A stretch of 64,000 bases of DNA from a virus (IMGVR_UViG_3300022074_000021:12333-76332), one strand, 5' to 3'. Numbered from the stretch's first letter, positions 4,471 through 60,745 are shown. Notes: a model not told the origin generated them from the letters alone. Program-made: numbers and translations.

Positions 4471-5082
4471 TTAAGCTGTTCTTTGCCATACATACATACC
4501 GAATGTTGGCGGAATATTATTATGTGATTGATTACCACCTGTATTATCCGGTAGTAGGGGAGTTGCTTGTGGTCTAGATGGATTACCATGATCGGCATAG
4601 TAGCCTACGTTAGGATCATTTCCTAACCTCGAGGAGTTCTTAATAGGGTGAGTATGTTCTGGTAGTTCGGTAACTGTTAGTTGATGCTTATACTCCCCAG
4701 TTGTATCAACATCACCAGCTGCAACTGTATGGGTATCGCTACTATTATCAGTACCTTGACCAACTCCTGCTATGAACTTTCCTTTAGATACTTGTAGCCA
4801 AGTTGTACCGGTAAATCGATCACCTGGATTAGTATTGTCAATAGAAAAAATAACTGAACCAACTGGGTAAATTGTATCAGCAATCGCGGCTTTAAAATTG
4901 CTACCAAGTGCACCATCTACATCAATTCCTTGACCTGCTCTTCCTAAACTAAGTGCACTTTTATTACCAAATCCGTCATAAATATCTTCTTGCCCGGACG
5001 CTGGTAGAGCCTCACCTTTAGCATGAAGCACACCGACATATGTTTCGGAAATGTTGGTGTTTGTTAATGATTCACTTGCCAT
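4471..5082 (-). CDS. Baseplate/short-fibre protein with T4 gp10 C-terminal-like domain
   Basis: YPVGSVIFS..NPG..F.GTTW...GEYKHQLTVTELPEHTH...GGNQSHNNIPP...YVWQRTA; start moved to 5082 (MASESL), 6 nt after ATAAATA. Confidence 0.75.
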   Translation of the reverse strand: MASESLTNTNISETYVGVLHAKGEALPASGQEDIYDGFGNKSALSLGRAGQGIDVDGALGSNFKAAIADTIYPVGSVIFSIDNTNPGDRFTGTTWLQVSKGKFIAGVGQGTDNSSDTHTVAAGDVDTTGEYKHQLTVTELPEHTHPIKNSSRLGNDPNVGYYADHGNPSRPQATPLLPDNTGGNQSHNNIPPTFGMYVWQRTA

Positions 5083-5115
5083 ACATATATTTATGGTAGT
5101 GGCAGTATTAAGCAA

Positions 5116-7080
5116 TCAAATTTCTATAATACTGCCTATAGTATATGATGGTTGTACATCAGAACTTATATCAGGCTCAACCAAATTAACTAATTTTTCT
5201 TGTACCTCATGTACCAGTTTAAAACATCTATTTAAAACTCCGTTAAGATTTTCTTCATTACCATGAATATAGAAATTTTCAAGTTCATTAGTTATAAACT
5301 TACTAAAATCAACATTATAATTATAATTATCAAGCTCTAATATATCATTATTAAAAGAACCGGTAAATCTACCTATAATATTATTCTTAAGAAGTAACAC
5401 ATCCTCAACTAGTTTAAATATTTCTGTATTAACTATAGATTGCTGTATAAAACTATCACTATTCAACGAAAATCCTTGACTACCATAATTAGTGTAATTA
5501 GGATCCTTTAGAACTCGCTGATAAGAACTCATAATAGGTTCATCGAAAAAGTATAATCTACCGGTAGTTAGCATAATTGTCCTATCATAGCTACTAGTAG
5601 ATTGAAAAATTGAAAAACTATTGATCCGTGAATCTAGAAGACCACTTACTTGCTCAGTCTCAATTGCTTCACCAACTTGTGTACCTAGATTCCAAATAAA
5701 CTCTGCTTGTGAAAAATTAATATCATTAAAATTCCACCGATTATTTATAGATACTGGATTATTAGATATTTCCACAGTTTCATCAGTAAAATCCAAAAGA
5801 TAAAGTCGCTCAGTTCTGTACCTGCCAACAATTTTTGAAGGACGAGTTTTAAACTTTTTATATACTGTCTTATTAGTTGCAAAATACCAGTAATTACTAT
5901 CTGTGCCTGAAAATGTAATATCTATTATTTCTTCTGTTTGAGCAAGTCTATCATCTAGAACTATCTCTTCTTTAAACCTAAAGTTTTCACCACTAAAACG
6001 GTATAAATATGGTATCCGAGATGTAATGTTATTTATAACTACATCTTTATAGGTTAAAATATATAGAGAATTAAAATCTGGGTCAAACCCCATTGCACCC
6101 AATGTCTCTGTATTAAAATTAATAGATGTAATACGAGTTATATAATTAAATTCCTCATCGAAAATTTTAACTACTTTGTTTCCAGAATCAAAAACCGCAA
6201 CTGCATTATTAGTAACAGCTAATTTAGTGGGTCTAACAAATTTAGTCTGGCGTCTTGAGTCACCATAACCACCTACTAACTCAATATAGTTACGTTTATT
6301 TCTAAGAGAACTATCATTATTAACATAACCAGCAATATCATAACGTAAAACAACATTATTACCAGTATCAGAAAGATATAAATATTTTTTTGTAGAGGCA
6401 ATTCCACCTAACTCTTTAAATGTTAGATTATTTTCATCTGTAGTTTCATATCCAGTAGTATCTTCTATAACAGTTAAATCTGTGTTAGATCCAGTTAAGC
6501 ATATAAGATCGGAAGAAGTACACGCAAATAACGAGAAATGATCTTCAAAATCTAAATTAGCTTGCACAGTTGCATCAACAATATAACCAAAGGCACTTAG
6601 ATAATGATTATTTTCAAATCTTACATTTTCAACAAATTGAGGATTTTCAGTATTTGATGTATTAATCTGAAATGCAGATAATGTATTAGAAGAAAGAGAA
6701 GCATATCGTATAGATTCAGTATATGGTAACTTATTAGATGCTATAAAAAGTCTAGAATAAACATATGTATTATTTTCACGTAAATTATCTAATTTAAGTT
6801 TAAATAAATCGTAATTAAAATTATCATTAAGACTGAAGGTACAGTTATCAACGGAGTTTGGTAAAGTAATATCAGTATCACTAATAACTCGATCGGTAAA
6901 ATTATTTGTAAAAAATAAATCTGTAGCAAAAGTGTTTTTAGATGTAAGTGTTTTATTGGTTATTACTTCTTTAGCAACATTATCTTTAGTTTCAACAAAA
7001 CCATAAAAATCTGACCCGGTAAGAGTAAACATATTACCGGAAGTATAAACTTTTTTATATGAGGAATAATCAATAATCAT
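5116..7080 (-). CDS. Virion structural protein with NHL/beta-propeller repeats
   Basis: LYLSDTGNNVV, FVRPTKLAV, VAVFDSGNKVVKIFD motifs; lies in the baseplate operon. Confidence 0.6.
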   Translation of the reverse strand: MIIDYSSYKKVYTSGNMFTLTGSDFYGFVETKDNVAKEVITNKTLTSKNTFATDLFFTNNFTDRVISDTDITLPNSVDNCTFSLNDNFNYDLFKLKLDNLRENNTYVYSRLFIASNKLPYTESIRYASLSSNTLSAFQINTSNTENPQFVENVRFENNHYLSAFGYIVDATVQANLDFEDHFSLFACTSSDLICLTGSNTDLTVIEDTTGYETTDENNLTFKELGGIASTKKYLYLSDTGNNVVLRYDIAGYVNNDSSLRNKRNYIELVGGYGDSRRQTKFVRPTKLAVTNNAVAVFDSGNKVVKIFDEEFNYITRITSINFNTETLGAMGFDPDFNSLYILTYKDVVINNITSRIPYLYRFSGENFRFKEEIVLDDRLAQTEEIIDITFSGTDSNYWYFATNKTVYKKFKTRPSKIVGRYRTERLYLLDFTDETVEISNNPVSINNRWNFNDINFSQAEFIWNLGTQVGEAIETEQVSGLLDSRINSFSIFQSTSSYDRTIMLTTGRLYFFDEPIMSSYQRVLKDPNYTNYGSQGFSLNSDSFIQQSIVNTEIFKLVEDVLLLKNNIIGRFTGSFNNDILELDNYNYNVDFSKFITNELENFYIHGNEENLNGVLNRCFKLVHEVQEKLVNLVEPDISSDVQPSYTIGSIIEI

Positions 7081-19799: not shown

Positions 19800-19804
19800 T
19801 TTGT

Positions 19805-19812
19805 GTATAAAT
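19805..19812 (+). promoter_or_regulatory. T4-type late promoter TATAAATA (representative; TAAATA precedes most structural genes)
   Basis: Also about 6 nt before starts at 1788, 5082, 16133, 17975, 18528, 22803, 24766, 27481, 28917, 34324, 35073, 37158, 39588, 40213, 42009, 43082, 46174 and 56625. Confidence 0.85.
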
Positions 19813-19818
19813 ATATGT

Positions 19819-21561
19819 ATGGTTAAATTTATTTCTCTATATTTAGCTTTTTCTATAAGCATATTTTCTGCTGAGATAAATCATAGTTTAAAAATTGATG
19901 AAATTATTTCGGCAGATTTAAAGTATAAAAAACTATTAATGCCTAAGAAATCATCAGATGATGTATTTGTTAGAAGGGCTTTTTTAGATATAGTTGGAAG
20001 AATACCAACATATGAAGAAAGTATCGGGTTTAAAAAGTATAATGATAGAGAGAAGTTAGTTGAATATCTTATAAACTCTCAGGGCTATAATGAGTCGATG
20101 TTCAATTTCTATGCTGATACTCTTAGATTGAAGAAAAAACTTAACGGTAACGTCTCCGGTGAGACTTATATAACTTGGGTTAGAGAGCAAATTAAAAATA
20201 ATACTCCTTACAATAAATTAGTTAAAGATATTTTAACAGCCCAAGGTACAATATATACTAATCCAGCCGTTGGATATTTTCTAAGAGATGAAGGTATGTT
20301 ACTTGATAATGTATCAAATACCTTTCAAGCATTTGCCGGTATGGATGTCTCTTGTGCTCAATGCCATGATCATCCATTTGATGATTGGTCACAGATGGAG
20401 TATTATGAAATGAGTGCTTTCTTCACCACTGTTAATACCAGAAGTGATAAAGGTATGCGTAAGGAATATCAAAGACTTCGTAAGGAGGCAGAAGCAACAG
20501 ATAAAGCCAAAGAAACAAAAGGAGCTCTTAATGAGATTGGTCAATTCTGGCAACAAGGAGGATATCGTAATAAAGTAGATAGTGATCTTAAGAAGGTACT
20601 CTCTCTACCACACGACTATAAGTATAAAGATGGTGACCCTGGTGAAGTAGTTAAGGCTGCTACACCGGTTGGTGATAGAGTTAAAGAAACTCGCAAGAGA
20701 AATAAATTACAGCCAAGCTTTGCACAATGGATGGTAAGTGAAGAACACCCTACATTTACTGCTAATATTGTTAATAGACTTTGGCATAAAGCATTTGGCT
20801 TTGCCTTAATAGATAATCTTAACAATATAGCAGAATATGATGAGCTTCGTGAGAGTCGTAATGATAAGTTATTATTATATCTGGTTGATGTAATGAAGGA
20901 AGTTAATTATGATCTTAAGAAGTTTAACTCTATTTTATATAATACAAAGTTTTATGGGTGTGAAACAGACCCAGAAGATAATTTTCAAGGTCCTATTATG
21001 AGACGTATGACCGCTGCTCAACTTTGGGATAGCCTTATTACTCTATATACGGGAGACATAGATAAATGGCAGCCAGAGAATAGAATAGAAAAGTTCCGTT
21101 ATATGTTTCCGGAAGATCTAGCCACACTTAACTCTATACAAGCGTTAAAAGTATATAAAGATTTTAAAAGAATTGAGAAAGAATATTATAAAGGAGCCCC
21201 TAAAGCAGGTAAGGTCTTTGCAATTAGATCCTCTCATATCTTTGACGGTAGGGCTCGAAACTTTATGTTAGAGTTTGGAGGATCGGATAGAGAGCTAATT
21301 GAAAATGGTAATCAAGAAGCCAATATTATGCAAATTTTGACTCTTATGAACTCTGGTATGACCAAAGAGTTAATGTCAGTTAAGAGTAGACTTGGTCAGA
21401 AACTTTTAGATCTAAAAAGAAAAGAAGCAGTTAATTATGTCTTTCGTTCTTATATTGGTAGATCACCCTCAAAAGATGAGCAGCAAGCATTTAAAGGAGT
21501 TGGATTTTCTGATATTGTTTGGGTGCTTATTAACTCTCACGAATTCAAACTAATTATTTAA
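19819..21561 (+). CDS. DUF1549/DUF1553 (PSCyt2/PSD1) protein with signal peptide
   Basis: DDVFVRRAFLDIVGRIPT, CAQCHDHPFDDW, FTANIVNRLWHKAFG, RRMTAAQLWDSL, DIVWVLINSHEF; perfect TATAAATA 6 nt before ATG. Confidence 0.9.
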   Translation: MVKFISLYLAFSISIFSAEINHSLKIDEIISADLKYKKLLMPKKSSDDVFVRRAFLDIVGRIPTYEESIGFKKYNDREKLVEYLINSQGYNESMFNFYADTLRLKKKLNGNVSGETYITWVREQIKNNTPYNKLVKDILTAQGTIYTNPAVGYFLRDEGMLLDNVSNTFQAFAGMDVSCAQCHDHPFDDWSQMEYYEMSAFFTTVNTRSDKGMRKEYQRLRKEAEATDKAKETKGALNEIGQFWQQGGYRNKVDSDLKKVLSLPHDYKYKDGDPGEVVKAATPVGDRVKETRKRNKLQPSFAQWMVSEEHPTFTANIVNRLWHKAFGFALIDNLNNIAEYDELRESRNDKLLLYLVDVMKEVNYDLKKFNSILYNTKFYGCETDPEDNFQGPIMRRMTAAQLWDSLITLYTGDIDKWQPENRIEKFRYMFPEDLATLNSIQALKVYKDFKRIEKEYYKGAPKAGKVFAIRSSHIFDGRARNFMLEFGGSDRELIENGNQEANIMQILTLMNSGMTKELMSVKSRLGQKLLDLKRKEAVNYVFRSYIGRSPSKDEQQAFKGVGFSDIVWVLINSHEFKLII

Positions 21562-21562
21562 T

Positions 21563-22762
21563 ATGGAAAGAAGAACATTTATACAAGCATTAGCAACCAG
21601 TACTTACGGAGTTAAAGCATATGCAAACGCACCGGTGCCCGAAAAAGTAAAAGCAAAAAACATTATCTATATTTACCTTGATGGTGGTATGAGTCATATT
21701 GATACTTTTGATCCGAAAGATGATAAAGAGGTAATGGGTGACACGGAAAAAATTATTACACGAGGAGATTTCCAGATAGGAAATAGACTTCCTAAATTAG
21801 CAGAAGTAATGAATAAAGCCGTTGTAATACGCTCAACAACGTCTAAGACAGGTGCTCATCAGCAAGCTCAATATCTCAGCAGAACTTCATATAAACAACT
21901 TGGTACTATTACTCACCCATCGTTAGGATCATGGGTGTCGCATATATCGGATAGGGATAAAGCTATTCCGGATTTTGTTCTTGTTAATGGTATAAGCACC
22001 CACCCGGGTTCGGGGTTTCTTCCAAAGAGACAATCACCCTTACCTATTATAGATCCTAAAGATGGTCTTAAGAACTCCAAGGTTGATGATAAGCTTCAAG
22101 AAAGAATGGCTTTACTTAAAGTTATTAATAAAAAGATTAACGCACCTATAGCTGATACTTATAACGAATTCTATGATGATACAGTTCGGTTTCTTAAATC
22201 TAAAGACTTAGAGTTATTTGATATTAGTAAAGAGCCATCTGCTAAGAGAGAGCGTTATGGTACTTCTCGGTTAGGTCAAGGATTACTTCTTGCTAAAAGA
22301 TTAGTTAAAGGAGATATTAAATTTATTGAAGTATCATCTGGTGGTTGGGATACCCATACAGATAACTTTACAAAGCTTGATGACAGAGTTAAAGAGCTTG
22401 ATGATGGTGTAAGCGCTCTTGTTGAAGATTTAGAAAGTGAAGGCTTACTTGATTCTACTCTTATTGTTATCGCCACAGAGTTTGGACGAACACCAAAGAT
22501 TAATGTTAATACAGGTCGCGATCACTACCCTAAAGCATACTCAACTGTTTTAATAGGAGCTGGTATTAAGAGTGGTATGGCTTATGGCGAGACTGATGAC
22601 ACAGCTTCAAAGGTTATAAAAGATGCTGTAACGATATCTGACATTAATGCTACTGTCGCACATTTAGCCGGACTAGATGTTACTAAAGAATATTCATCTC
22701 CGTCTGGACGTCCATTTGAATTAGCTGATAAAGGAAAGGTAATTAAAGATGTGTTGGGGTAG
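21563..22762 (+). CDS. DUF1501 protein (Tat-type signal, alkaline phosphatase/sulfatase-like fold)
   Basis: MERRTFIQ Tat motif; LDGGMSHIDTFDPK, GGWDTH, TEFGRTPKIN...GRDHYP. Confidence 0.9.
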   Translation: MERRTFIQALATSTYGVKAYANAPVPEKVKAKNIIYIYLDGGMSHIDTFDPKDDKEVMGDTEKIITRGDFQIGNRLPKLAEVMNKAVVIRSTTSKTGAHQQAQYLSRTSYKQLGTITHPSLGSWVSHISDRDKAIPDFVLVNGISTHPGSGFLPKRQSPLPIIDPKDGLKNSKVDDKLQERMALLKVINKKINAPIADTYNEFYDDTVRFLKSKDLELFDISKEPSAKRERYGTSRLGQGLLLAKRLVKGDIKFIEVSSGGWDTHTDNFTKLDDRVKELDDGVSALVEDLESEGLLDSTLIVIATEFGRTPKINVNTGRDHYPKAYSTVLIGAGIKSGMAYGETDDTASKVIKDAVTISDINATVAHLAGLDVTKEYSSPSGRPFELADKGKVIKDVLG

Positions 22763-22802
22763 TCAATACTTGCTTAAAGTGCTAAGAGCTATAAATAAAG
22801 GT

Positions 22803-24230
22803 ATGAGCACTAACCCTGAGGCAAGTTGGCCTAAGTTTAAATATTTAGAAGGTGAAATAAGCGGTAACCTTACTAAAACCCGTACTATGGGAGTTGATGA
22901 TACTGGTATTATTCATTCATTAGGTTATAAATCTGATATGCATATTAAAACTGATATTGCAGCAGGTACAATAGAGAAGCAAGCAGAAGGATTAAAAGGT
23001 TTTATCGGTACTGTTGAAGCATCAGATGGTAATACTTATTACATGCCGGCCTATTCAAGCTCTATTGGTATTCTCAACAAAAAAACAGGTGAGATAACTA
23101 CTGTCAAAAAATTTAATATGACTCCGCAGGTACGTTCAGGAGCAGAAGGTGCTAATGGTATTATTTATATGCCATCATATACAAGTACATTAAAAATATA
23201 TACATATGATACAAAAACTGGGGAAGTAGATTCTTTTACACCCACAAAGAAAGGATCACACGGTCACATATGGGGAGCAGCAGCTGATAAGAAAGGTGAA
23301 GTATATATGCCCCCAGCGCTTAACAATTACGTAGCTAAAATAGATAAGAATGGTGAATTTAAATATTTAGATGGTCCTAGAGTTACATCTGGAGTGTCTG
23401 GGTTTAATGTAAAATATGTTGGTGCTACCTATGTAGAGTCTGTCGACAAAGTATTTTGCTTACCTCGTAAAGGTAGTAAAATTTTAATTATAAATTGTGC
23501 AGATGATACATATGAAGAAATTGATTTACCGGCTGATTACCTCGCAGTTTCAAATGTTAACAGAAACTTTCATGGCTACTTAGCTCCTGATGGATGGCTG
23601 TATAGTGCTTTTTGGGCTGATACATACTGTTTTAGAATCAACCCAGCAACATATGAAATTCAATGGAATAATTATGAAAAGGAATTTGAAGATAGTGGTA
23701 TTCAGAACAGAGGTACAGGATATTCAACAGCTGCTATTACAATAGGGGATGATGTTTATCTTGGATTAGCAGGAACAACTAAAGCAGTTAAGCTTGAGTT
23801 TGAAAAGCAGTTAGTTATTTCTAATGAAGATGTAGCTCCATCACCTTCAACTACTGCTTGTGGCAGTTGTCCTTCTTCTTCTGCTACTATATGTGGTAGT
23901 TCTCCATCACCAACGCCAACAGCTACTGCATGCGGCAGTTGTCCTTCTTCTTCTGCTACTATATGTGGTAGTTGCCCATCGTCATCTGCTACTATATGTG
24001 GTAGTTGTCCTTCTTCTTCTGCTACTATATGTGGTAGTTGTCCTTCTTCTTCAGCTACTATATGTGGTAGTTGCCCATCGTCATCTGCTACTATATGTGG
24101 TAGTTGCCCATCATCTTCAGCTACTATATGTGGTAGTTGTCCTTCCTCTTCAGCTACTATATGTGGTAGTTGCCCATCATCTTCAGCTACTATATGTTGC
24201 AGCTATAGTTGTTGTAATACTTGTTGCTAA
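22803..24230 (+). CDS. Beta-propeller protein with C-terminal Cys-rich (CGSCPSSSATI)n tail
   Basis: Repeated G.IY.P blades (DGNTYYMP, NGIIYMP, KGEVYMP, DGWLYSA); start at 22803, 6 nt after TATAAATA. Confidence 0.75.
   Translation: MSTNPEASWPKFKYLEGEISGNLTKTRTMGVDDTGIIHSLGYKSDMHIKTDIAAGTIEKQAEGLKGFIGTVEASDGNTYYMPAYSSSIGILNKKTGEITTVKKFNMTPQVRSGAEGANGIIYMPSYTSTLKIYTYDTKTGEVDSFTPTKKGSHGHIWGAAADKKGEVYMPPALNNYVAKIDKNGEFKYLDGPRVTSGVSGFNVKYVGATYVESVDKVFCLPRKGSKILIINCADDTYEEIDLPADYLAVSNVNRNFHGYLAPDGWLYSAFWADTYCFRINPATYEIQWNNYEKEFEDSGIQNRGTGYSTAAITIGDDVYLGLAGTTKAVKLEFEKQLVISNEDVAPSPSTTACGSCPSSSATICGSSPSPTPTATACGSCPSSSATICGSCPSSSATICGSCPSSSATICGSCPSSSATICGSCPSSSATICGSCPSSSATICGSCPSSSATICGSCPSSSATICCSYSCCNTCC
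23860..24194 (+). repeat. 33-bp coding tandem repeat (8 tandem units at 23931-24194 plus 1 upstream copy)
   Basis: Units vary at synonymous positions of the CGSCPSSSATI frame (tgt cct tct vs tgc cca tcg). Confidence 0.95.
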
Positions 24231-24239
24231 ACAAAGAAT

Positions 24240-24271
24240 AAAAAACCGGAGATATATCTCCGGTTTTTTTT
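24240..24271. terminator. Bidirectional intrinsic terminator
   Basis: aaaaaaccggagatatatctccggtttttttt palindrome between convergent genes. Confidence 0.85.
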
Positions 24272-24286
24272 GGTTAAAAATTTAAA

Positions 24287-24766
24287 TTACTTAAGAAGTG
24301 GTATGCCTTGAAGCTTAGGTTTTACACCATGGGCAGGACTAGCACCTCCGAAGACAACTTCCTCATCTTCTTCTTTGTGATCTTCATCATCCTTTTCATC
24401 CTCATCATCTGCCTCTTCTTCATCGGATTTTTTACCATGCAATTCATACAGAGTAATTTGAACATCTTCAGCTAGTACCGCTGCTAATTTACCGTTATGC
24501 TCTACATAATACTCTTCAATAATACCTTCACCGTTTAAGCTGTGATGGAGAATTTTCTTAACGCCCTCAAACTGAGGACCTTCAATATGAGATGCTCAGT
24601 CGTGTTCGATATTACCACCCTTGAAAGCAGCTTCTCCATTATCTTCAACCGGATTCGGAGCATCAGCTGATTCAACGACAACTTTCTCTGCCTGTTGATT
24701 CATGGACCCGTACGCTTCAGCAAGCATATCCATATCCTTTTTAAAATTATTATGTTGTTTAGCCAT
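24287..24766 (-). CDS. Candidate selenoprotein, 159 aa, in-frame TGA at codon 57 (24596-24598), motif IEHD-U-ASHI
   Basis: ATG 24766 is 6 nt after CTAAATA. MAKQHNNFKKDMDMLAEAYG...GGNIEHD*ASHIEGPQFEGVKKILHHSLNGEGIIEEYYVEHNGKLAAVLAEDVQITLYELHG..acidic tail..LK-TAA. 102 sense codons follow the TGA, and the gene fills the gap between two terminators. Confidence 0.75.
24558..24585 (-). promoter_or_regulatory. Bacterial SECIS-like hairpin downstream of the in-frame UGA
   Basis: GUCCUCA-GUU-UGAGGGC stem-loop (24579-24563) starts 16 nt after the UGA; the loop G is 23 nt after the UGA; extendable lower stem UUGA/UUAA. Confidence 0.6.
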
Positions 24767-24797
24767 ATTATTATTTAGTCTAGATATATAGAAAACA

Positions 24798-25878: not shown

Positions 25879-26328
25879 TTATTTAATATTTCCTCCACGA
25901 TTTACACACTTCTGAACGTATCCTGATGCATAAGCTGAAGGCCATACATCATACTTACGCTTAGCTTTGGCTTGACATTTAGCACGAGTCTTAGATACTT
26001 TCTTTTCAGCGTCCTCCTCAGATTTCTTTTTACCACTCTTCATATTAGCACACCAGTGATACATCTTACCTTTCTCACCACCATACTTCTTAGCCCTCTT
26101 ACGAAGCTCAGTTACAGTGCCTTTGCAACTAGCACCTGCACGCTTAACACGACCCGGGCTGCTCTCTGCATCCTCTTCATTTTCCTTACTAGCTCTAAGT
26201 TTATCTCCTGCACTTTTAGCTGCTTTATAAGCTTTACTACCTTTACGAGCACTCTTGGCACCACGCTTTTTCTTAGCGTTAATATTGGCCCATAACCCTT
26301 CAGTATAAAATTCCTTAAATGTCTTCAT
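25879..26328 (-). CDS. Modular basic internal head protein with capsid-targeting-like N-terminus
   Basis: MKTFKEFYTE resembles the T4 internal-protein targeting sequence MKTYQEFIAE; modules separated by EEDAE. Confidence 0.65.
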   Translation of the reverse strand: MKTFKEFYTEGLWANINAKKKRGAKSARKGSKAYKAAKSAGDKLRASKENEEDAESSPGRVKRAGASCKGTVTELRKRAKKYGGEKGKMYHWCANMKSGKKKSEEDAEKKVSKTRAKCQAKAKRKYDVWPSAYASGYVQKCVNRGGNIK

Positions 26329-42008: not shown

Positions 42009-42998
42009 ATGGCTAAAACAAAAGACCTTAAAGATCTCGGTGAGGTTTATGGTAACCTTGGTAAAGAGGCTACTGTTGTTGCTGAGAATTTAGAAGCGCA
42101 AACAGTTGGTGATAAGAATGCCAATGTTGGTGATGCAGATATCCAACCTGGTGGACCAACAGCAGAGGGTGGATTTGAAGAATCGGAAGTTGATATTAAA
42201 AAGGTAGGGGATGACAATCCTTATAATATTAAAGGACTTTCATACGGGGATGATAACTGCCCTACTCTTGAGACAGAGCAACCGGAAGAGCAAGAAGCTG
42301 GAGAAAAGAAAGATGATCCAGAAAGTTCGACTGAAGAAGAAGACGAAGAAGAATTTTCCGAAGAAGTACTTGAAATTGCACGGGAGGGACTAAATAAATA
42401 TATGGCCAATAAATCTATTTTTGATGAACTCTATGCCAAAGTCATTAACGAAGACTTCGGTATGGAAGAAGTTGACGACCTTGATGCTCTCGGTATTGAA
42501 GATGCAACTCCAGATGAGGAGCTTGCTGACGATGAAGGTGACGACATTGAAGGTGAAGTAACAATTACACTTGACAAAGAACTCGCAAAAGCTCTCCATG
42601 ATATCCTTATGGCAGCCATGGAGGAAGATGATGATGATTCAGACGACGATGCTGATGCTGATGATGAAGCTGAAGATGGTGAAATGCATGGACACGAGGA
42701 TGGCGAAATGCATGGACACGAAGAAGACAACGAGGGAGAGCCAACAGCTTTTAACACCCATTATAATGATGGTAAAAGCAATAAAGTTGGTAACACTGGA
42801 GACGGCTTCGGTCAACCTAAAGTTCAGCCAATGAATAAAGTACATCACAAACCAGTAGCTGGTGCTTCTGATACAGGTGGTACTCCACAAGCTCTTAACC
42901 ATTCTGTGAATGATGGTAAGAATAATAAAGTTGGTAACCAAGGAGATGGCTTCGGTCAACCTAAAGTTGAGCCAATGAATAAAGCTGTTAAAGCATAA
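42009..42998 (+). CDS. Highly acidic late protein (scaffold/internal-protein-like) with possible internal start at 42402
   Basis: ATAAATA 6 nt upstream; duplicated NDGKxNKVGNxGDGFGQPKVxPMNK and EDGEMHGH repeats. Confidence 0.65.
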   Translation: MAKTKDLKDLGEVYGNLGKEATVVAENLEAQTVGDKNANVGDADIQPGGPTAEGGFEESEVDIKKVGDDNPYNIKGLSYGDDNCPTLETEQPEEQEAGEKKDDPESSTEEEDEEEFSEEVLEIAREGLNKYMANKSIFDELYAKVINEDFGMEEVDDLDALGIEDATPDEELADDEGDDIEGEVTITLDKELAKALHDILMAAMEEDDDDSDDDADADDEAEDGEMHGHEDGEMHGHEEDNEGEPTAFNTHYNDGKSNKVGNTGDGFGQPKVQPMNKVHHKPVAGASDTGGTPQALNHSVNDGKNNKVGNQGDGFGQPKVEPMNKAVKA

Positions 42999-49603: not shown

Positions 49604-50173
49604 ATGCATAACCAAGTAGTAGACTCCCATAAGAGTACTGTCTATAAGAAGCTTAAGGCACAAAGTCCTTTAGATGTAGTCGCTTTTACTGCAGGTAACT
49701 TTGATATTATTCACCCTGGTTATACAGCTACGTTTGAAGAGGCTAAAAGACATTGTGATAAGTTCATAGTATTCTTGCATGGTGATCCTTCTGCTACTCG
49801 TAATACAAAATATAGGCCAGTAGTACCATACTACGACCGTTATAAGATGCTCATGTCTATTAAGCATATTGATGAAGTCTATATGTACCAGACAGAAAAA
49901 GAACTTTTAGAGCTTATGAAGACTTTTGATCTTGATGTCCGTATTTTAGGAGAAGATTATCTTGGTAAACCTTTTACTGGTGATGACTTAGACCATGAAG
50001 TTATATATACAACGAGATCACATGAATGGTCTACAACTAAGTTTAAGAATCGTATTGCAGCTATGACTATGATTCAGAATGAGAAGCTACGCAATAGGGT
50101 GTTAGCTCTACTTAACGATGAGGATGCATCAGATGATATACTTAAAGGTGACTTTACAGAATTAGAGAAATGA
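49604..50173 (+). CDS. Cytidylyltransferase-like protein (TagD family)
   Basis: AGNFDIIHPGY, ILGEDY.GKPFTG, RSHEWSTT. Confidence 0.85.
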   Translation: MHNQVVDSHKSTVYKKLKAQSPLDVVAFTAGNFDIIHPGYTATFEEAKRHCDKFIVFLHGDPSATRNTKYRPVVPYYDRYKMLMSIKHIDEVYMYQTEKELLELMKTFDLDVRILGEDYLGKPFTGDDLDHEVIYTTRSHEWSTTKFKNRIAAMTMIQNEKLRNRVLALLNDEDASDDILKGDFTELEK

Positions 50174-58551: not shown

Positions 58552-58612
58552 GGGGGTGACATTGGGTTCGACGTAAAAAATACGGATGAGGGTTCAAATC
58601 CCTCCACCTCCA
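58552..58612 (+). ncRNA. Minimal tmRNA-like RNA (tRNA-like domain only)
   Basis: GGGGGUG/CACCUCC-A acceptor with G3:U70 and A73; unpaired D-like ACAUUGGGUUCGAC; CGUA-AAAAA-UACG hairpin; GGAU linker; T-arm GAGGG-UUCAAAU-CCCUC. Confidence 0.75.
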
Positions 58613-58974
58613 TTAATAAATACTAATATGGCATTTGAACATTTACATCTTGATAATTTAGGTAGAATTATCTACAAAATCGCTAGATCATTCGGTTATA
58701 CAGAAGAGTGGTGGTTTTCCTACGATGGCCAGAGCAACAGAACAATCGAAAAATATATTAAAGAGAAAAAGCCATTTTAAAGTGAAAAAACTATTAAAAG
58801 CTTTTAAAAATAAAAAGAATCGTAAAATAGATTACGATCAAGAGCTGGATAGTTTTAGACAAATGGTAATAGATCTTCACCTTAAAATAACTAGGCTAGA
58901 GAAAGAAAATCGTAGATTGAAACGGATTATTAAAAAACTCTCGGAAATATAAGGAACTTCATTATAATAAATAT

Positions 58975-60635: not shown

Positions 60636-60745
60636 GGCCCGGTCATCTAACTGGGAAGACCCACCCGGTAGCAATGCTAGCAAGGCTACAACAAGGCGAC
60701 GGCTAAGTATGGGAGGTAATGCAGGTTCAATACCTGCTCGGGCCT
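60636..60745 (+). ncRNA. tRNA-like RNA with 44-nt insert in place of the anticodon loop
   Basis: Acceptor GGCCCGG/UCGGGCC-U; D-arm AUCU-AACUGGGA-AGAC; stem CACCC/GGGAG; T-arm GCAGG-UUCAAUA-CCUGC; own promoter at 60604-60620. Confidence 0.65.

What the first reader, a model, noticed from the sequence alone, without database searches (positions are those of the whole stretch)
24287..24766. Candidate phage-encoded selenoprotein with its own SECIS-like hairpin
Seen: a late-promoter-driven minus-strand gene missed by the ORF caller, with one in-frame TGA (codon 57) in H-D-[UGA]-A-S-H. 102 more sense codons follow up to TAA and a bidirectional terminator. A GUCCUCA/UGAGGGC stem with a GU-starting loop lies 16-32 nt downstream. 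Established: bacterial SECIS elements are hairpins just 3' of the UGA with a G near the start of the apical loop, bound by SelB. TGA is a real stop elsewhere here (e.g. 5116, 10460, 34333, 50173), so this is not genome-wide recoding. Inference: from memory, T4-like aquatic phage proteins carry an HDCAxH...H motif, so Sec would replace Cys in a His/Cys metal or redox site. The N-terminus (MLAEAY...VVVE, EDNGE) resembles the processed internal head proteins nearby, so this may be a virion-packaged selenoprotein that borrows host SelA/B/C/D. No tRNA-Sec or sel gene is visible in the window.
Basis: partly seen in the sequence, partly recalled or inferred. Interest (0 to 1): 0.92.

Follow-up and report, generated by a model that had tools for sequence, protein, structure and literature searches.

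The report
Phage gene encoding selenocysteine via SECIS
A small late gene of this uncultured marine T4-like phage reads through an internal UGA "stop" that every related phage sequence keeps, at the spot where cyanophage relatives have cysteine, and a co-varying RNA hairpin always follows, so it most likely encodes a selenium-containing protein, which no paper I could search reports for a virus of bacteria.

Summary
Gene 24287-24766 (-) has one in-frame TGA (24596-24598, codon 57), a TAAATA-N5-ATG late-promoter motif and a terminator.

- **TGA conservation:** TGA stands at this codon in all about 120 related loci examined, from viral and metagenome contigs (59 distinct site sequences, down to about 30% protein identity). 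No TGG or TGY occurs in this clade.
- **The "Trp" in databases is an artefact:** database proteins showing Trp here are table-4 translations.
- **Selection:** both halves of the gene are under purifying selection.
- **Cys relatives:** the Sec-forms are one clade inside a large phage-only family whose other members, including T4-like cyanophages, have Cys at this column (71 copies).
- **Invariant residues:** H55, U/C57, A58, H75, Y86 and H110, on a small SH3-like barrel.
- **Hairpin:** one that fits the published bacterial SECIS model follows every UGA, 17-23 nt downstream. It comes in six stem versions with compensatory changes, and it is absent from the Cys-forms.
- **Genetic code:** TGA is an ordinary stop elsewhere, and the phages carry no suppressor tRNA and no sel genes.

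Best reading (about 0.8): a phage selenoprotein made with the host's SelB machinery, probably a head-internal protein. Host and function are unknown.

This scan has reported phage selenoprotein candidates before, on other DNA. I found none in the literature.

The parts
24764..24777 (-). Late-promoter-type motif TAAATA (24777-24772), 5-nt spacer, and the start codon ATG (24766-24764)
   Evidence: the DNA search with TAAATANNNNNATG gave 21 matches against 2.7 expected, and this is one of them. It lies just after the upstream gene's terminator at 24831-24802.
24287..24766 (-). Whole recoded gene: 159 codons with UGA at codon 57, plus the TAA stop
   Evidence: Translation. Relatives are colinear over residues 1-159. 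dN/dS is well below 1 on both sides of the UGA.
24599..24766 (-). Codons 1-56: predicted N-terminal helix (residues 8-27) and a low-confidence linker. This is all that table 11 would translate.
   Evidence: the ORF listing shows a 56-aa ORF ending at the TGA. AF2 secondary structure. Upstream dN/dS is 0.02-0.35.
24596..24598 (-). In-frame UGA (codon 57), the proposed selenocysteine codon
   Evidence: TGA in all 22 distinct viral-contig sequences and in 80 of 80 metagenome loci. It aligns with the invariant Cys of the Cys-forms. Contigs from independent runs keep it.
24563..24579 (-). SECIS-like hairpin GUCCUCA-GUU-UGAGGGC: 7 bp, loop GUU, loop starting 23 nt after the UGA
   Evidence: -8.0 kcal/mol. 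It meets the bSECIS model constraints quoted from PMC13188914. Covariation across six stem versions. Absent from the Cys-forms (3 of 57, at other positions).
24437..24604 (-). Core domain, residues 55-110: a five-strand small barrel carrying the invariant H55, U57, A58, H75, Y86 and H110
   Evidence: Alignment A2. AF2 pLDDT is 70-80 in this stretch. SH3/KOW/Tudor-like matches, best Z 4.4. Cyanophage 'possible cytitidyltransferase' models in BFVD.
24341..24436 (-). Acidic low-complexity linker, residues 111-142
   Evidence: Translation. pLDDT is below 50. Length and content vary among relatives, some with insertions.
24290..24340 (-). Conserved C-terminal motif S-x-x-H-G-x-[KR]-P-K-L-x-G-[VI]-P, residues 143-159
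   Evidence: Nearly invariant columns S143, H146, G147, P150, K151, L152, G154 and V155 in A1.
24240..24269 (-). Intrinsic-terminator-like hairpin flanked by A and T runs, shared with the convergent gene 22749-24230 (+)
   Evidence: scan_promoters_terminators found 13 pairs followed by a T run.

Best explanation
The gene encodes a 159-residue selenoprotein. Ribosomes reaching UGA-57 do not terminate. The hairpin 17-33 nt downstream acts as a bacterial-type SECIS: it recruits the host's SelB-GTP-Sec-tRNA(Sec) complex, and selenocysteine is inserted. The phage supplies only the codon and the hairpin; selA, selB, selC and selD must come from the host.

Sec sits at the start of the first strand of a small SH3-like barrel. 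It is next to H55 and, by inference, close to H75 and H110. That would give a Sec/Cys-His3 site for metal binding or redox chemistry, shared with a large phage-only family that uses Cys.

The gene has a late-type promoter motif. It lies among genes whose products start with the T4 internal-protein targeting motif, and one Sec-form clade carries that motif itself. The product is therefore probably packed into the head and delivered with the DNA.

Shown: the conserved UGA, the Cys/Sec pairing, the co-varying hairpin, purifying selection on both halves, and ordinary use of TGA as a stop elsewhere. Inferred: actual Sec insertion, a host with Sec machinery, the metal/redox site, and packaging into the virion.
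For: 1. **UGA conservation.** TGA stands at the same codon in all 22 distinct sequences from viral contigs, in six clades down to about 30% protein identity. It also stands in 80 of 80 metagenome loci, 37 of them distinct. No TGG or TGY occurs in the clade, although synonymous sites are near saturation (dS about 1-2.5).
2. **Reading frame.** No start codon lies downstream that could give the conserved KKILHH...EEYYVEHNGK part. dN/dS is 0.02-0.35 upstream and 0.07-0.29 downstream.
3. **Cys/Sec pair.** A profile search found the Cys-forms P0064, P0067 and P0073. There are 71 domain copies in viral contigs, all TGT or TGC. In the 52-sequence alignment the column is invariant U/C, with H55, A58, H75, Y86 and H110 also invariant. 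The Sec-forms are one clade (support 96/86), and a Cys-form is its sister.
4. **SECIS.** All 22 distinct sequences have a hairpin whose loop starts 17-23 nt after the UGA. The loops are GUU, CGUUU, AGUU or GGUC. Twenty of 22 pass the filter of at least 5 bp, dG of -4 or lower, and G in the first two loop positions, against 3 of 57 Cys-forms (Mann-Whitney p = 3e-10). Pair positions 2-5 are 99% paired, compensatory double changes occur at positions 1, 3, 5, 6 and 7, and 0 of 2000 shuffles reach the observed pairing. The window's hairpin meets all four constraints of the published bSECIS model.
5. **No genome-wide recoding.** TGA ends 7 of 58 large ORFs here and ends the gene itself in clade L060-L065. 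No other credible in-frame TGA lies in the window. There is no suppressor tRNA; the 93%-complete relative G001 has only tRNA-Leu, Met and Arg.
6. **Not an assembly error.** The stretch occurs in runs of 14 studies, and independent contigs keep the TGA.
7. **Host hint, weak.** The phage's DUF1549/DUF1553 + DUF1501 operon is nearest to Planctomycetota and Verrucomicrobiota MAGs. Four of the five MAGs tested carry selB above the curated cut-off.
Against: - No host is known, so the presence of selA/B/C/D and tRNA-Sec in the infected cell is untested.
- The PVC host hint rests on about 30% identity.
- There is no protein-level evidence: no 75Se labelling and no mass spectrometry.
- The hairpins are short (4-7 bp). 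Four of the 22 fold weaker than the model's -7.5 kcal/mol over 48 nt.
- I derived the structure from these same sequences, so the slid-partner control is biased.
- The sequences are related, so the p-values overstate independence.
- The Sec-forms have no second Cys, so a classical CxxU redox pair is absent.
- A Sec-His3 metal site has no well-known natural precedent (from my own knowledge).
- The AF2 model is only moderately confident (mean pLDDT 59.5, core 70-80), and its coordinates could not be inspected.
Confidence: 0.8

Rival explanations
1. Programmed read-through without SelB. The hairpin or the codon context makes the ribosome insert a standard residue at UGA through a near-cognate tRNA (Trp, Cys or Arg). 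This would give a short 56-residue product and a longer 159-residue product in a set ratio.
For: UGA is the leakiest stop codon, and read-through extension products are known in phages, for example the Q-beta A1 protein (from my own knowledge). Table 11 gives a 56-aa ORF with a conserved N-terminal part that could work on its own. No host Sec machinery has been shown.
Against: If a standard residue were inserted, a one-base change to TGG or TGY would give the same long protein. Yet none of 59 distinct sequences has one, despite saturated synonymous change. The column is an invariant Cys in 71 relatives, which is the diagnostic Cys/Sec pattern. The hairpin's position and its G-[G/U] loop fit the SelB-type model. 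I know of no bacterial read-through stimulator of this form.
Confidence: 0.1
2. The UGA is a true stop. The real product is the 56-residue peptide, and the downstream 102 codons are either translated separately or are a decaying remnant.
For: Gene callers using table 11 stop here. Database representatives P0042, P0050, P0057 and P0062 end exactly at ...EHD.
Against: The only in-frame start downstream is a TTG 51 codons before the end, past the conserved core. The downstream core has dN/dS of 0.07-0.29 and invariant residues across six clades. The frame is continuous in every relative.
Confidence: 0.04
3. TGA is reassigned to Trp in these phages, either genome-wide or late in infection (a table-4-like code, as in stop-codon-recoded phages).
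For: Public protein collections translate the family with W at the site.
Against: TGA ends 7 of 58 large ORFs in the window, and it ends this very gene in clade L060-L065. Only this gene has a credible in-frame TGA. No tRNA with anticodon UCA lies in the window or in a 93%-complete relative. P0041's W-containing tail runs past real stops, which shows the W is a calling artefact.
Confidence: 0.02
4. Sequencing or assembly error, or a recent nonsense mutation making a pseudogene.
For: The window comes from a metagenome-assembled fragment (CheckV 36%).
Against: The same TGA is present in about 120 loci from many samples and assemblers, and in independent runs.
Confidence: 0.01

Closest known systems
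Bacterial selenoprotein genes with an in-ORF SECIS read by SelB (prototype E. coli fdhF; bSECIS consensus model as summarised in PMC13188914)
   Same: An in-frame UGA at a position where homologues have Cys. A hairpin lies inside the coding sequence, with a 3-5 nt apical loop, G followed by G or U at its start, 17-23 nt after the UGA. The distant clades even have a GGUC loop; from my own memory, fdhF has the same loop. TGA remains a stop elsewhere.
   Different: The gene belongs to a lytic-type T4-like phage that carries none of selA, selB, selC or selD. The protein family is phage-only and of unknown function. There is no partner Cys, and the conserved neighbours of Sec are histidines. No biochemical proof exists.
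Cyanomyovirus small proteins annotated 'possible cytitidyltransferase' or hypothetical (P-SSM7 PSSM7_192, T4-GC 715; phrog_22379, phrog_11470, phrog_764)
   Same: The same domain: H-x-C-A-x-H ... G-E-G ... H ... Y-D-V ... H-x-H on a small barrel, often with a Lys-rich tail. The columns H, C/U, A, H, Y and H are invariant.
   Different: These use Cys (TGT/TGC) and lack the hairpin. Identity to the window protein is 19-30%. They often come as tandem repeats or are fused to or next to a nucleotidyltransferase. Their function has not been tested either.
T4 internal head proteins IPI and IPIII with the N-terminal capsid targeting sequence (PMC3012670)
   Same: Small, fast-evolving late proteins. 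The neighbour 25879-26328 starts MKTFKEF, as T4 IPI does. Sec-form clade L060-L065 starts MKTFREF or MKTYNEF, like IPI and IPIII. The gene lies in the same variable island in all relatives.
   Different: The window protein starts MAKQHNNFKKDMDMLAEAY, not the T4 motif. There is no sequence homology to the T4 IPs beyond the tag. Virion presence and cleavage are untested.
Eukaryotic-virus selenoproteins (poxvirus glutathione peroxidase homologues; recoding review PMC8310308)
   Same: A virus-encoded gene whose UGA is redefined as Sec by the host machinery.
   Different: Those are captured host GPx genes with eukaryotic 3'-UTR SECIS elements. Here the family is virus-specific and uses a bacterial in-ORF hairpin.

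Membership tests
Bacterial-type selenoprotein gene (Sec-UGA + bSECIS) | In-frame UGA conserved among orthologues, with coding continuity across it | tested here: met
   TGA in 22 of 22 distinct viral-contig sequences and in 80 of 80 metagenome loci. dN/dS is well below 1 on both sides.
Bacterial-type selenoprotein gene (Sec-UGA + bSECIS) | Cys-containing homologues align with the UGA (Cys/Sec pair) | tested here: met
   71 TGT/TGC domain copies. The U/C column is invariant in A2. The Cys-form P0073 is sister to the Sec clade.
Bacterial-type selenoprotein gene (Sec-UGA + bSECIS) | bSECIS model: apical loop 3-9 nt, stem 4-16 bp, G in the first two loop positions, 16-37 nt from UGA to loop, MFE of -7.5 kcal/mol or lower (PMC13188914, Fig. 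2) | tested here: met
   Window: loop GUU, 7 bp, spacing 23 nt, -8.0 for the hairpin and -11.6 over 48 nt. All 22 meet the first three constraints; 18 of 22 meet the energy limit.
Bacterial-type selenoprotein gene (Sec-UGA + bSECIS) | The hairpin is maintained by compensatory change and is specific to the UGA-forms | tested here: met
   Six stem versions, double changes at 5 of 7 pair positions, 0 of 2000 shuffles reach the observed pairing. Hairpin found in 3 of 57 Cys-forms only. Caveat: I derived the structure from these same sequences.
Bacterial-type selenoprotein gene (Sec-UGA + bSECIS) | selA, selB, selC and selD available in the translating cell | not testable with these tools
   The host is unknown. 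The phage records, one of them 93% complete, have none of these genes. A weak hint: 4 of 5 PVC MAGs nearest to the phage's DUF1501 gene have selB.
Bacterial-type selenoprotein gene (Sec-UGA + bSECIS) | Selenium actually incorporated at the UGA | not testable with these tools
   Needs 75Se labelling or mass spectrometry.
Phage HxCAxH small-barrel domain (cyanophage 'possible cytitidyltransferase', phrog_22379/11470/764) | Sequence and fold homology over the domain, with the family's invariant residues | tested here: met
   The profile of A1 hits P0064, P0067 and P0073 at E = 8e-5 to 7e-4. Those three hit the PHROGs. H, C/U, A, H, Y and H are invariant. BFVD matches to E3SNV6, M4QDN5 and others at E = 3e-4 to 3e-3. 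P0001 alone hits no PHROG or Pfam family.
T4-type internal head protein | N-terminal capsid targeting sequence of the MKT[FY]xEF type | tested here: not met
   The window protein starts MAKQHNNFKKD. The motif is present in Sec-form clade L060-L065 and in the neighbour 25879-26328, and T4 IPI and IPIII were checked.
T4-type internal head protein | Late expression and presence in the virion, with processing by the prohead protease | tested here: inconclusive
   The late-type TAAATA-N5-ATG motif is present, and the gene lies in the island of IP-like genes. Virion content and cleavage cannot be tested here.
Stop-codon-recoded phage (TGA = Trp, table 4-like) | Many in-frame TGAs in late genes, TGA not used as a stop, suppressor tRNA present | tested here: not met
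   One credible in-frame TGA; 7 of 58 ORFs end in TGA; no tRNA(UCA).

The most novel reading that the evidence does not exclude
A whole clade of marine T4-like phages packs a selenoprotein into the capsid and injects it with the DNA. Its Sec-His3 centre, on a DNA-compatible SH3-like barrel, does chemistry that Cys cannot do as well, such as metal capture or a redox reaction at the moment of infection. Because the phage brings no sel genes, making infectious particles would depend on the host's selenium status and Sec machinery. That would be a new link between a trace element and phage-host range in the sea.
Probability: 0.3. Interest if true: 0.9.

Novelty: new variant of a known kind. Interest (0 to 1): 0.82.

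Why it matters
Selenocysteine decoding is known from cells and from a few eukaryotic viruses that captured host peroxidase genes. Two recent surveys of prokaryotic and marine selenoproteomes were checked. One does not mention phages at all. The other says the protein families it examined, selenoprotein families among them, have no or very few viral sequences apart from three metalloprotein families (PMC13188914, PMC9402790).

A phage-specific selenoprotein family would show four things:
- Lytic phages exploit the host's SelB pathway with nothing but a codon and a 17-nt hairpin.
- Standard gene calling hides such genes, either by truncating them or by silently switching to table 4 and writing Trp.
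- Selenium supply could bear on phage production in the ocean.
- It offers a natural Sec/Cys pair in a His-rich site of unknown chemistry.

The claim is directly testable by metaproteomics, 75Se labelling and reporter assays.

Tried and rejected
**Searches that gave nothing**
- The read-through protein has no match in GenBank phages by tblastn, none in Pfam and none in PHROGs.
- The family profile has no PDB relative by sequence.
- Fold search gave only generic SH3/KOW/Tudor barrels, best Z 4.4. That names a fold, not a function.
- The ESM Atlas returned only viral hypothetical clusters for a Cys-form.

The W-forms were checked through viral and metagenome loci instead.
I did not pursue it.

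**Trp at the site:** first suggested by alignment A1, then rejected once the DNA showed TGA everywhere.

**tRNA-Sec or a suppressor tRNA in the phage**
- The weak RF01852 and RF00005 hits are ordinary tRNAs or the mini-tmRNA-like RNA.
- The tRNA-like RNA at 60636-60745 has no UCA anticodon loop.

**A second recoded gene**
- 4471-7080 is two genes; the second has its own TAAATA-N5-ATG.
- 42390-42902 is antisense to a longer ORF.

**Host assignment:** the DUF1501 gene gave only about 30% identity to PVC MAGs, too distant to name a host.

**Alignment:** MAFFT on the 57-nt region gave an ungapped alignment that puts the distant clades' hairpins out of register. I made the structural alignment by script instead.

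**RNA library X12:** a contig spans the UGA and the hairpin, but this does not show transcription.

**Literature:** searches for phage selenoproteins and for 'cytitidyltransferase' found nothing relevant.

Full report
**What is there**

On the minus strand, an ATG at 24766 opens a frame that runs 56 codons to a TGA (24598-24596). It continues for 102 more codons to a TAA at 24289-24287. The ATG sits in TAAATA-N5-ATG, a motif found 21 times in the window against 2.7 expected and mostly placed at gene starts. A terminator-like hairpin closes the upstream gene at 24831-24802, and another follows this gene at 24269-24240. The gene is therefore its own small late-type unit.

The window is part of a 76-kb IMG/VR record with 36% estimated completeness. 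It is an uncultured marine T4-like phage. Its clamp loader is only about 40% identical to that of any isolate.

**The Trp trap**

The read-through protein (P0001) has no Pfam, PHROG or GenBank-phage match. It does have dozens of metagenome relatives, and all of them show Trp at codon 57 (HDWASH).

The DNA says otherwise. All 32 related viral-contig loci carry TGA at that codon. So do three distant relatives (L056-L058) and a further clade (L060-L065).

The database protein P0041 carries W where its near-identical locus L060 has the gene's true TGA stop and one more TGA beyond it. These W-forms are therefore table-4 translations of short contigs, not Trp codons. Other database entries stop exactly at ...EHD, or begin after the site, as table 11 would make them.

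A later scan of metagenome contigs gave 80 loci, and all 80 have TGA (37 distinct sequences).

**It is one gene under selection**

The only start codon downstream is a TTG 51 codons before the end, beyond the conserved core. Between pairs of relatives, dS is about 0.5-2.6. dN/dS is 0.02-0.35 upstream of the UGA and 0.07-0.29 in the 54 codons after it.

Contigs from independent samples, one of them from an RNA library, keep the TGA with no variant letter. That rules out an assembly error.

**Cys relatives**

A profile search of 1.8 billion representatives found proteins with Cys at the site: P0064, P0067 and P0073, with motifs HMCASHV, HNCATHV and HDCATHV. Using P0067 as bait gave 94 viral loci. 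I extracted 71 domain copies from the viral loci fetched with the Cys-form baits, and all are TGT or TGC.

The same domain is in cultured T4-like cyanophages (P-SSM7, P-HM1/2, MED4-213, S-ShM2, S-RIM14 and others). There it is annotated 'possible cytitidyltransferase' or hypothetical.

In a 52-sequence alignment of Sec-forms and Cys-forms, the invariant columns are H55, U/C57, A58, H75, Y86 and H110. In a maximum-likelihood tree the 19 Sec-forms are one clade (96/86), and the Cys-form P0073 is its sister (98/88). This means one Cys/Sec switch, followed by long retention.

**The hairpin**

Every one of the 22 distinct Sec-form sequences from viral contigs has a hairpin whose loop starts 17-23 nt after the UGA. 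There are six stem versions:

| Stem-loop | Where |
|---|---|
| GUCCUCA-GUU-UGAGGGC | this window |
| GCUCCUC-CGUUU-GGGGAGU | related clade |
| UCCUCA-GUU-UGGGGA | related clade |
| CAUCCA-AGUU-UGGGUG | related clade |
| CAUCCA-GGUC-UGGGUG | distant relative L058 |
| GCRCC-GGUC-GGUGC | distant relatives L056 and L057 |

These are listed.

- **Specific to the UGA-forms.** Twenty of 22 pass a filter of at least 5 bp, dG of -4 or lower, and G in the first two loop positions. Only 3 of 57 Cys-forms pass, and those hairpins lie elsewhere (Mann-Whitney p = 3e-10).
- **Covariation.** In a loop-anchored structural alignment, pair positions 2-5 are 99% paired. Five of seven positions show double (compensatory) changes. 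Slid partners pair at 52-62% against 86% observed, and no shuffle out of 2000 reaches the observed value. Two caveats apply: the sequences are related, and I read the structure off these same sequences.
- **A codon-level sign.** The Pro codon (CCN) that pairs with the conserved Gly codon (GGN) is present in Sec-forms, while Cys-forms mostly have Glu there. The RNA constraint is thus tied to the UGA.
- **Fit to the published model.** The review PMC13188914 gives these constraints: loop 3-9 nt, stem 4-16 bp, G in the first two loop positions (usually followed by G or U), 16-37 nt spacing, and MFE of -7.5 or lower. The window's hairpin meets all four. Eighteen of 22 meet the energy limit.
- **Background rate.** Such a hairpin follows only 0.9% of TGA triplets in the window.

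**Not another genetic code**

TGA ends 7 of 58 large ORFs here, and in clade L060-L065 it ends this very gene. Only two other frames in the window have a single internal TGA. One (4471-7080) is two genes, the second with its own promoter motif. The other is antisense to a longer ORF.

ARAGORN finds no tRNA in the window. A 93%-complete relative of 197 kb has only tRNA-Leu(UAA), Met and Arg(UCU). No tRNA-Sec, selA, selB or selD is present in five phage records. The machinery must therefore be the host's.

**What the protein is**

- AlphaFold2 on the mixed alignment gives an N-terminal helix (8-27), a five-strand small barrel (55-110, pLDDT 70-80) and a disordered acidic linker.
- The barrel resembles SH3, KOW, Tudor and integrase C-terminal domains only generically (best Z 4.4). 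It also matches cyanophage family members in BFVD.
- Nothing in the PDB is related by sequence. Atlas clusters of the Cys-form are all viral hypotheticals.
- The invariant H-x-U/C ... H ... H pattern suggests a Cys/Sec-His3 metal or redox site. This is inference, because I could not inspect the model's coordinates.

**Context**

In all relatives the gene lies in the variable island between the baseplate genes and gp44/dUTPase, next to small fast-evolving genes. The neighbour 25879-26328 starts MKTFKEF, identical to the start of T4 IPI. Sec-form clade L060-L065 starts MKTFREF or MKTYNEF, as IPI and IPIII do. The capsid-targeting role of that tag is described in PMC3012670. P0064's N-terminus hits the T4 gp67 prohead-core family (phrog_1064, E = 2.9e-5). 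Packaging into the head is therefore plausible. But this protein's own N-terminus (MAKQHNNFKKD...) lacks the tag, so membership is not shown.

**Host**

The host is unknown. The phage carries a DUF1549/DUF1553 + DUF1501 operon. Its nearest cellular homologues, at about 30% identity, are in Planctomycetota and Verrucomicrobiota MAGs. Four of the five MAGs tested have selB above the curated cut-off, against 2 of 14 control genomes. This is a weak hint only.

**Literature and earlier notes**

Full-text searches found no phage-encoded selenoprotein. The 2026 review of prokaryotic selenoproteomes does not mention phages. A marine survey states that, apart from three metalloprotein families, the metalloprotein and selenoprotein families it examined have no or very few viral sequences (PMC9402790).

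This scan's own notebook holds several earlier AI reports of phage selenoprotein candidates on other DNA. They are not independent evidence, and by word look-up they do not share sequence with this family.

**Verdict**

By the standard in-silico criteria this is a selenoprotein gene: a conserved UGA, a Cys/Sec pair, a co-varying bSECIS, and TGA used as a stop elsewhere. The new points are that it belongs to a phage and that its family is phage-only. Still unproven are Sec insertion itself, the host, the chemistry of the site and virion packaging.

Noticed in passing
window 58552-58615 (+): A 64-nt RNA scores 59.5 bits against Rfam tmRNA (gathering score 47), matching only the two ends of the model. 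It looks like a miniature tRNA-like domain without the mRNA-like part. It also gave the weak tRNA and tRNA-Sec model hits in G000.
   Followed up: partly
window 60636-60745 (+); also L202:1500-1622 (-): A tRNA-shaped RNA with acceptor, D and T arms intact, but with a 40-60 nt insert where the anticodon loop should be. A counterpart with a different insert lies in the related record G003 (RF00005, 35.9 bits). ARAGORN calls neither, and I saw no UCA anticodon loop.
   Followed up: partly
window 19801-22762 (+): A DUF1549 (PSCyt2) / DUF1553 (PSD1) gene and a DUF1501 gene, typical of Planctomycetota and Verrucomicrobiota, sit in the phage. A relative (L039) keeps them at 61-75% identity. The nearest cellular homologues are only about 30% identical.
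   Followed up: partly
window 22749-24230 (+): This 493-aa protein ends in about eight tandem copies of an 11-residue unit, CGSCPSSSATI (a CxxC repeat). It has no Pfam or PHROG match. It converges on the selenoprotein gene and shares its terminator.
   Followed up: no
window 4471-7080 (-): Two ORFs of 654 and 214 codons lie in the same frame, separated only by a TGA. The second has its own TAAATA-N5-ATG at 5093-5080, so they are most likely separate genes rather than a read-through pair.
   Followed up: partly
database proteins P0002-P0036, P0041 (relatives of window 24287-24766): Public protein collections hold this family translated with TGA = Trp (table 4), sometimes running past true stops. 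Other entries are split at the TGA. Such calls hide selenoprotein candidates and create false Trp columns.
   Followed up: yes
L014:3001-3645, L019:2980-3624, L006:2038-2649, L007:2701-3435: Some Sec-forms carry insertions of 50-100 residues in the acidic linker or before the core (for example AHKYTVIENDEE...WTWDEDGE). The termini and the core stay conserved, so the linker tolerates cargo-like inserts.
   Followed up: no
L193:4677-5837 (P-SSM7 PSSM7_191): The cyanophage nucleotidyltransferase-like protein next to the Cys-form gene starts MKKFSAFLTE, which resembles the T4 internal-protein targeting tag.
   Followed up: no
window 50173 (+), the TGA stop of ORF 49604-50173: One of the seven true TGA stops is followed by a 6-bp hairpin with a G-first loop 20 nt downstream (-6.9 kcal/mol), at an overlapping gene junction. 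Probably chance, but it shows that the hairpin filter alone is not specific.
   Followed up: no
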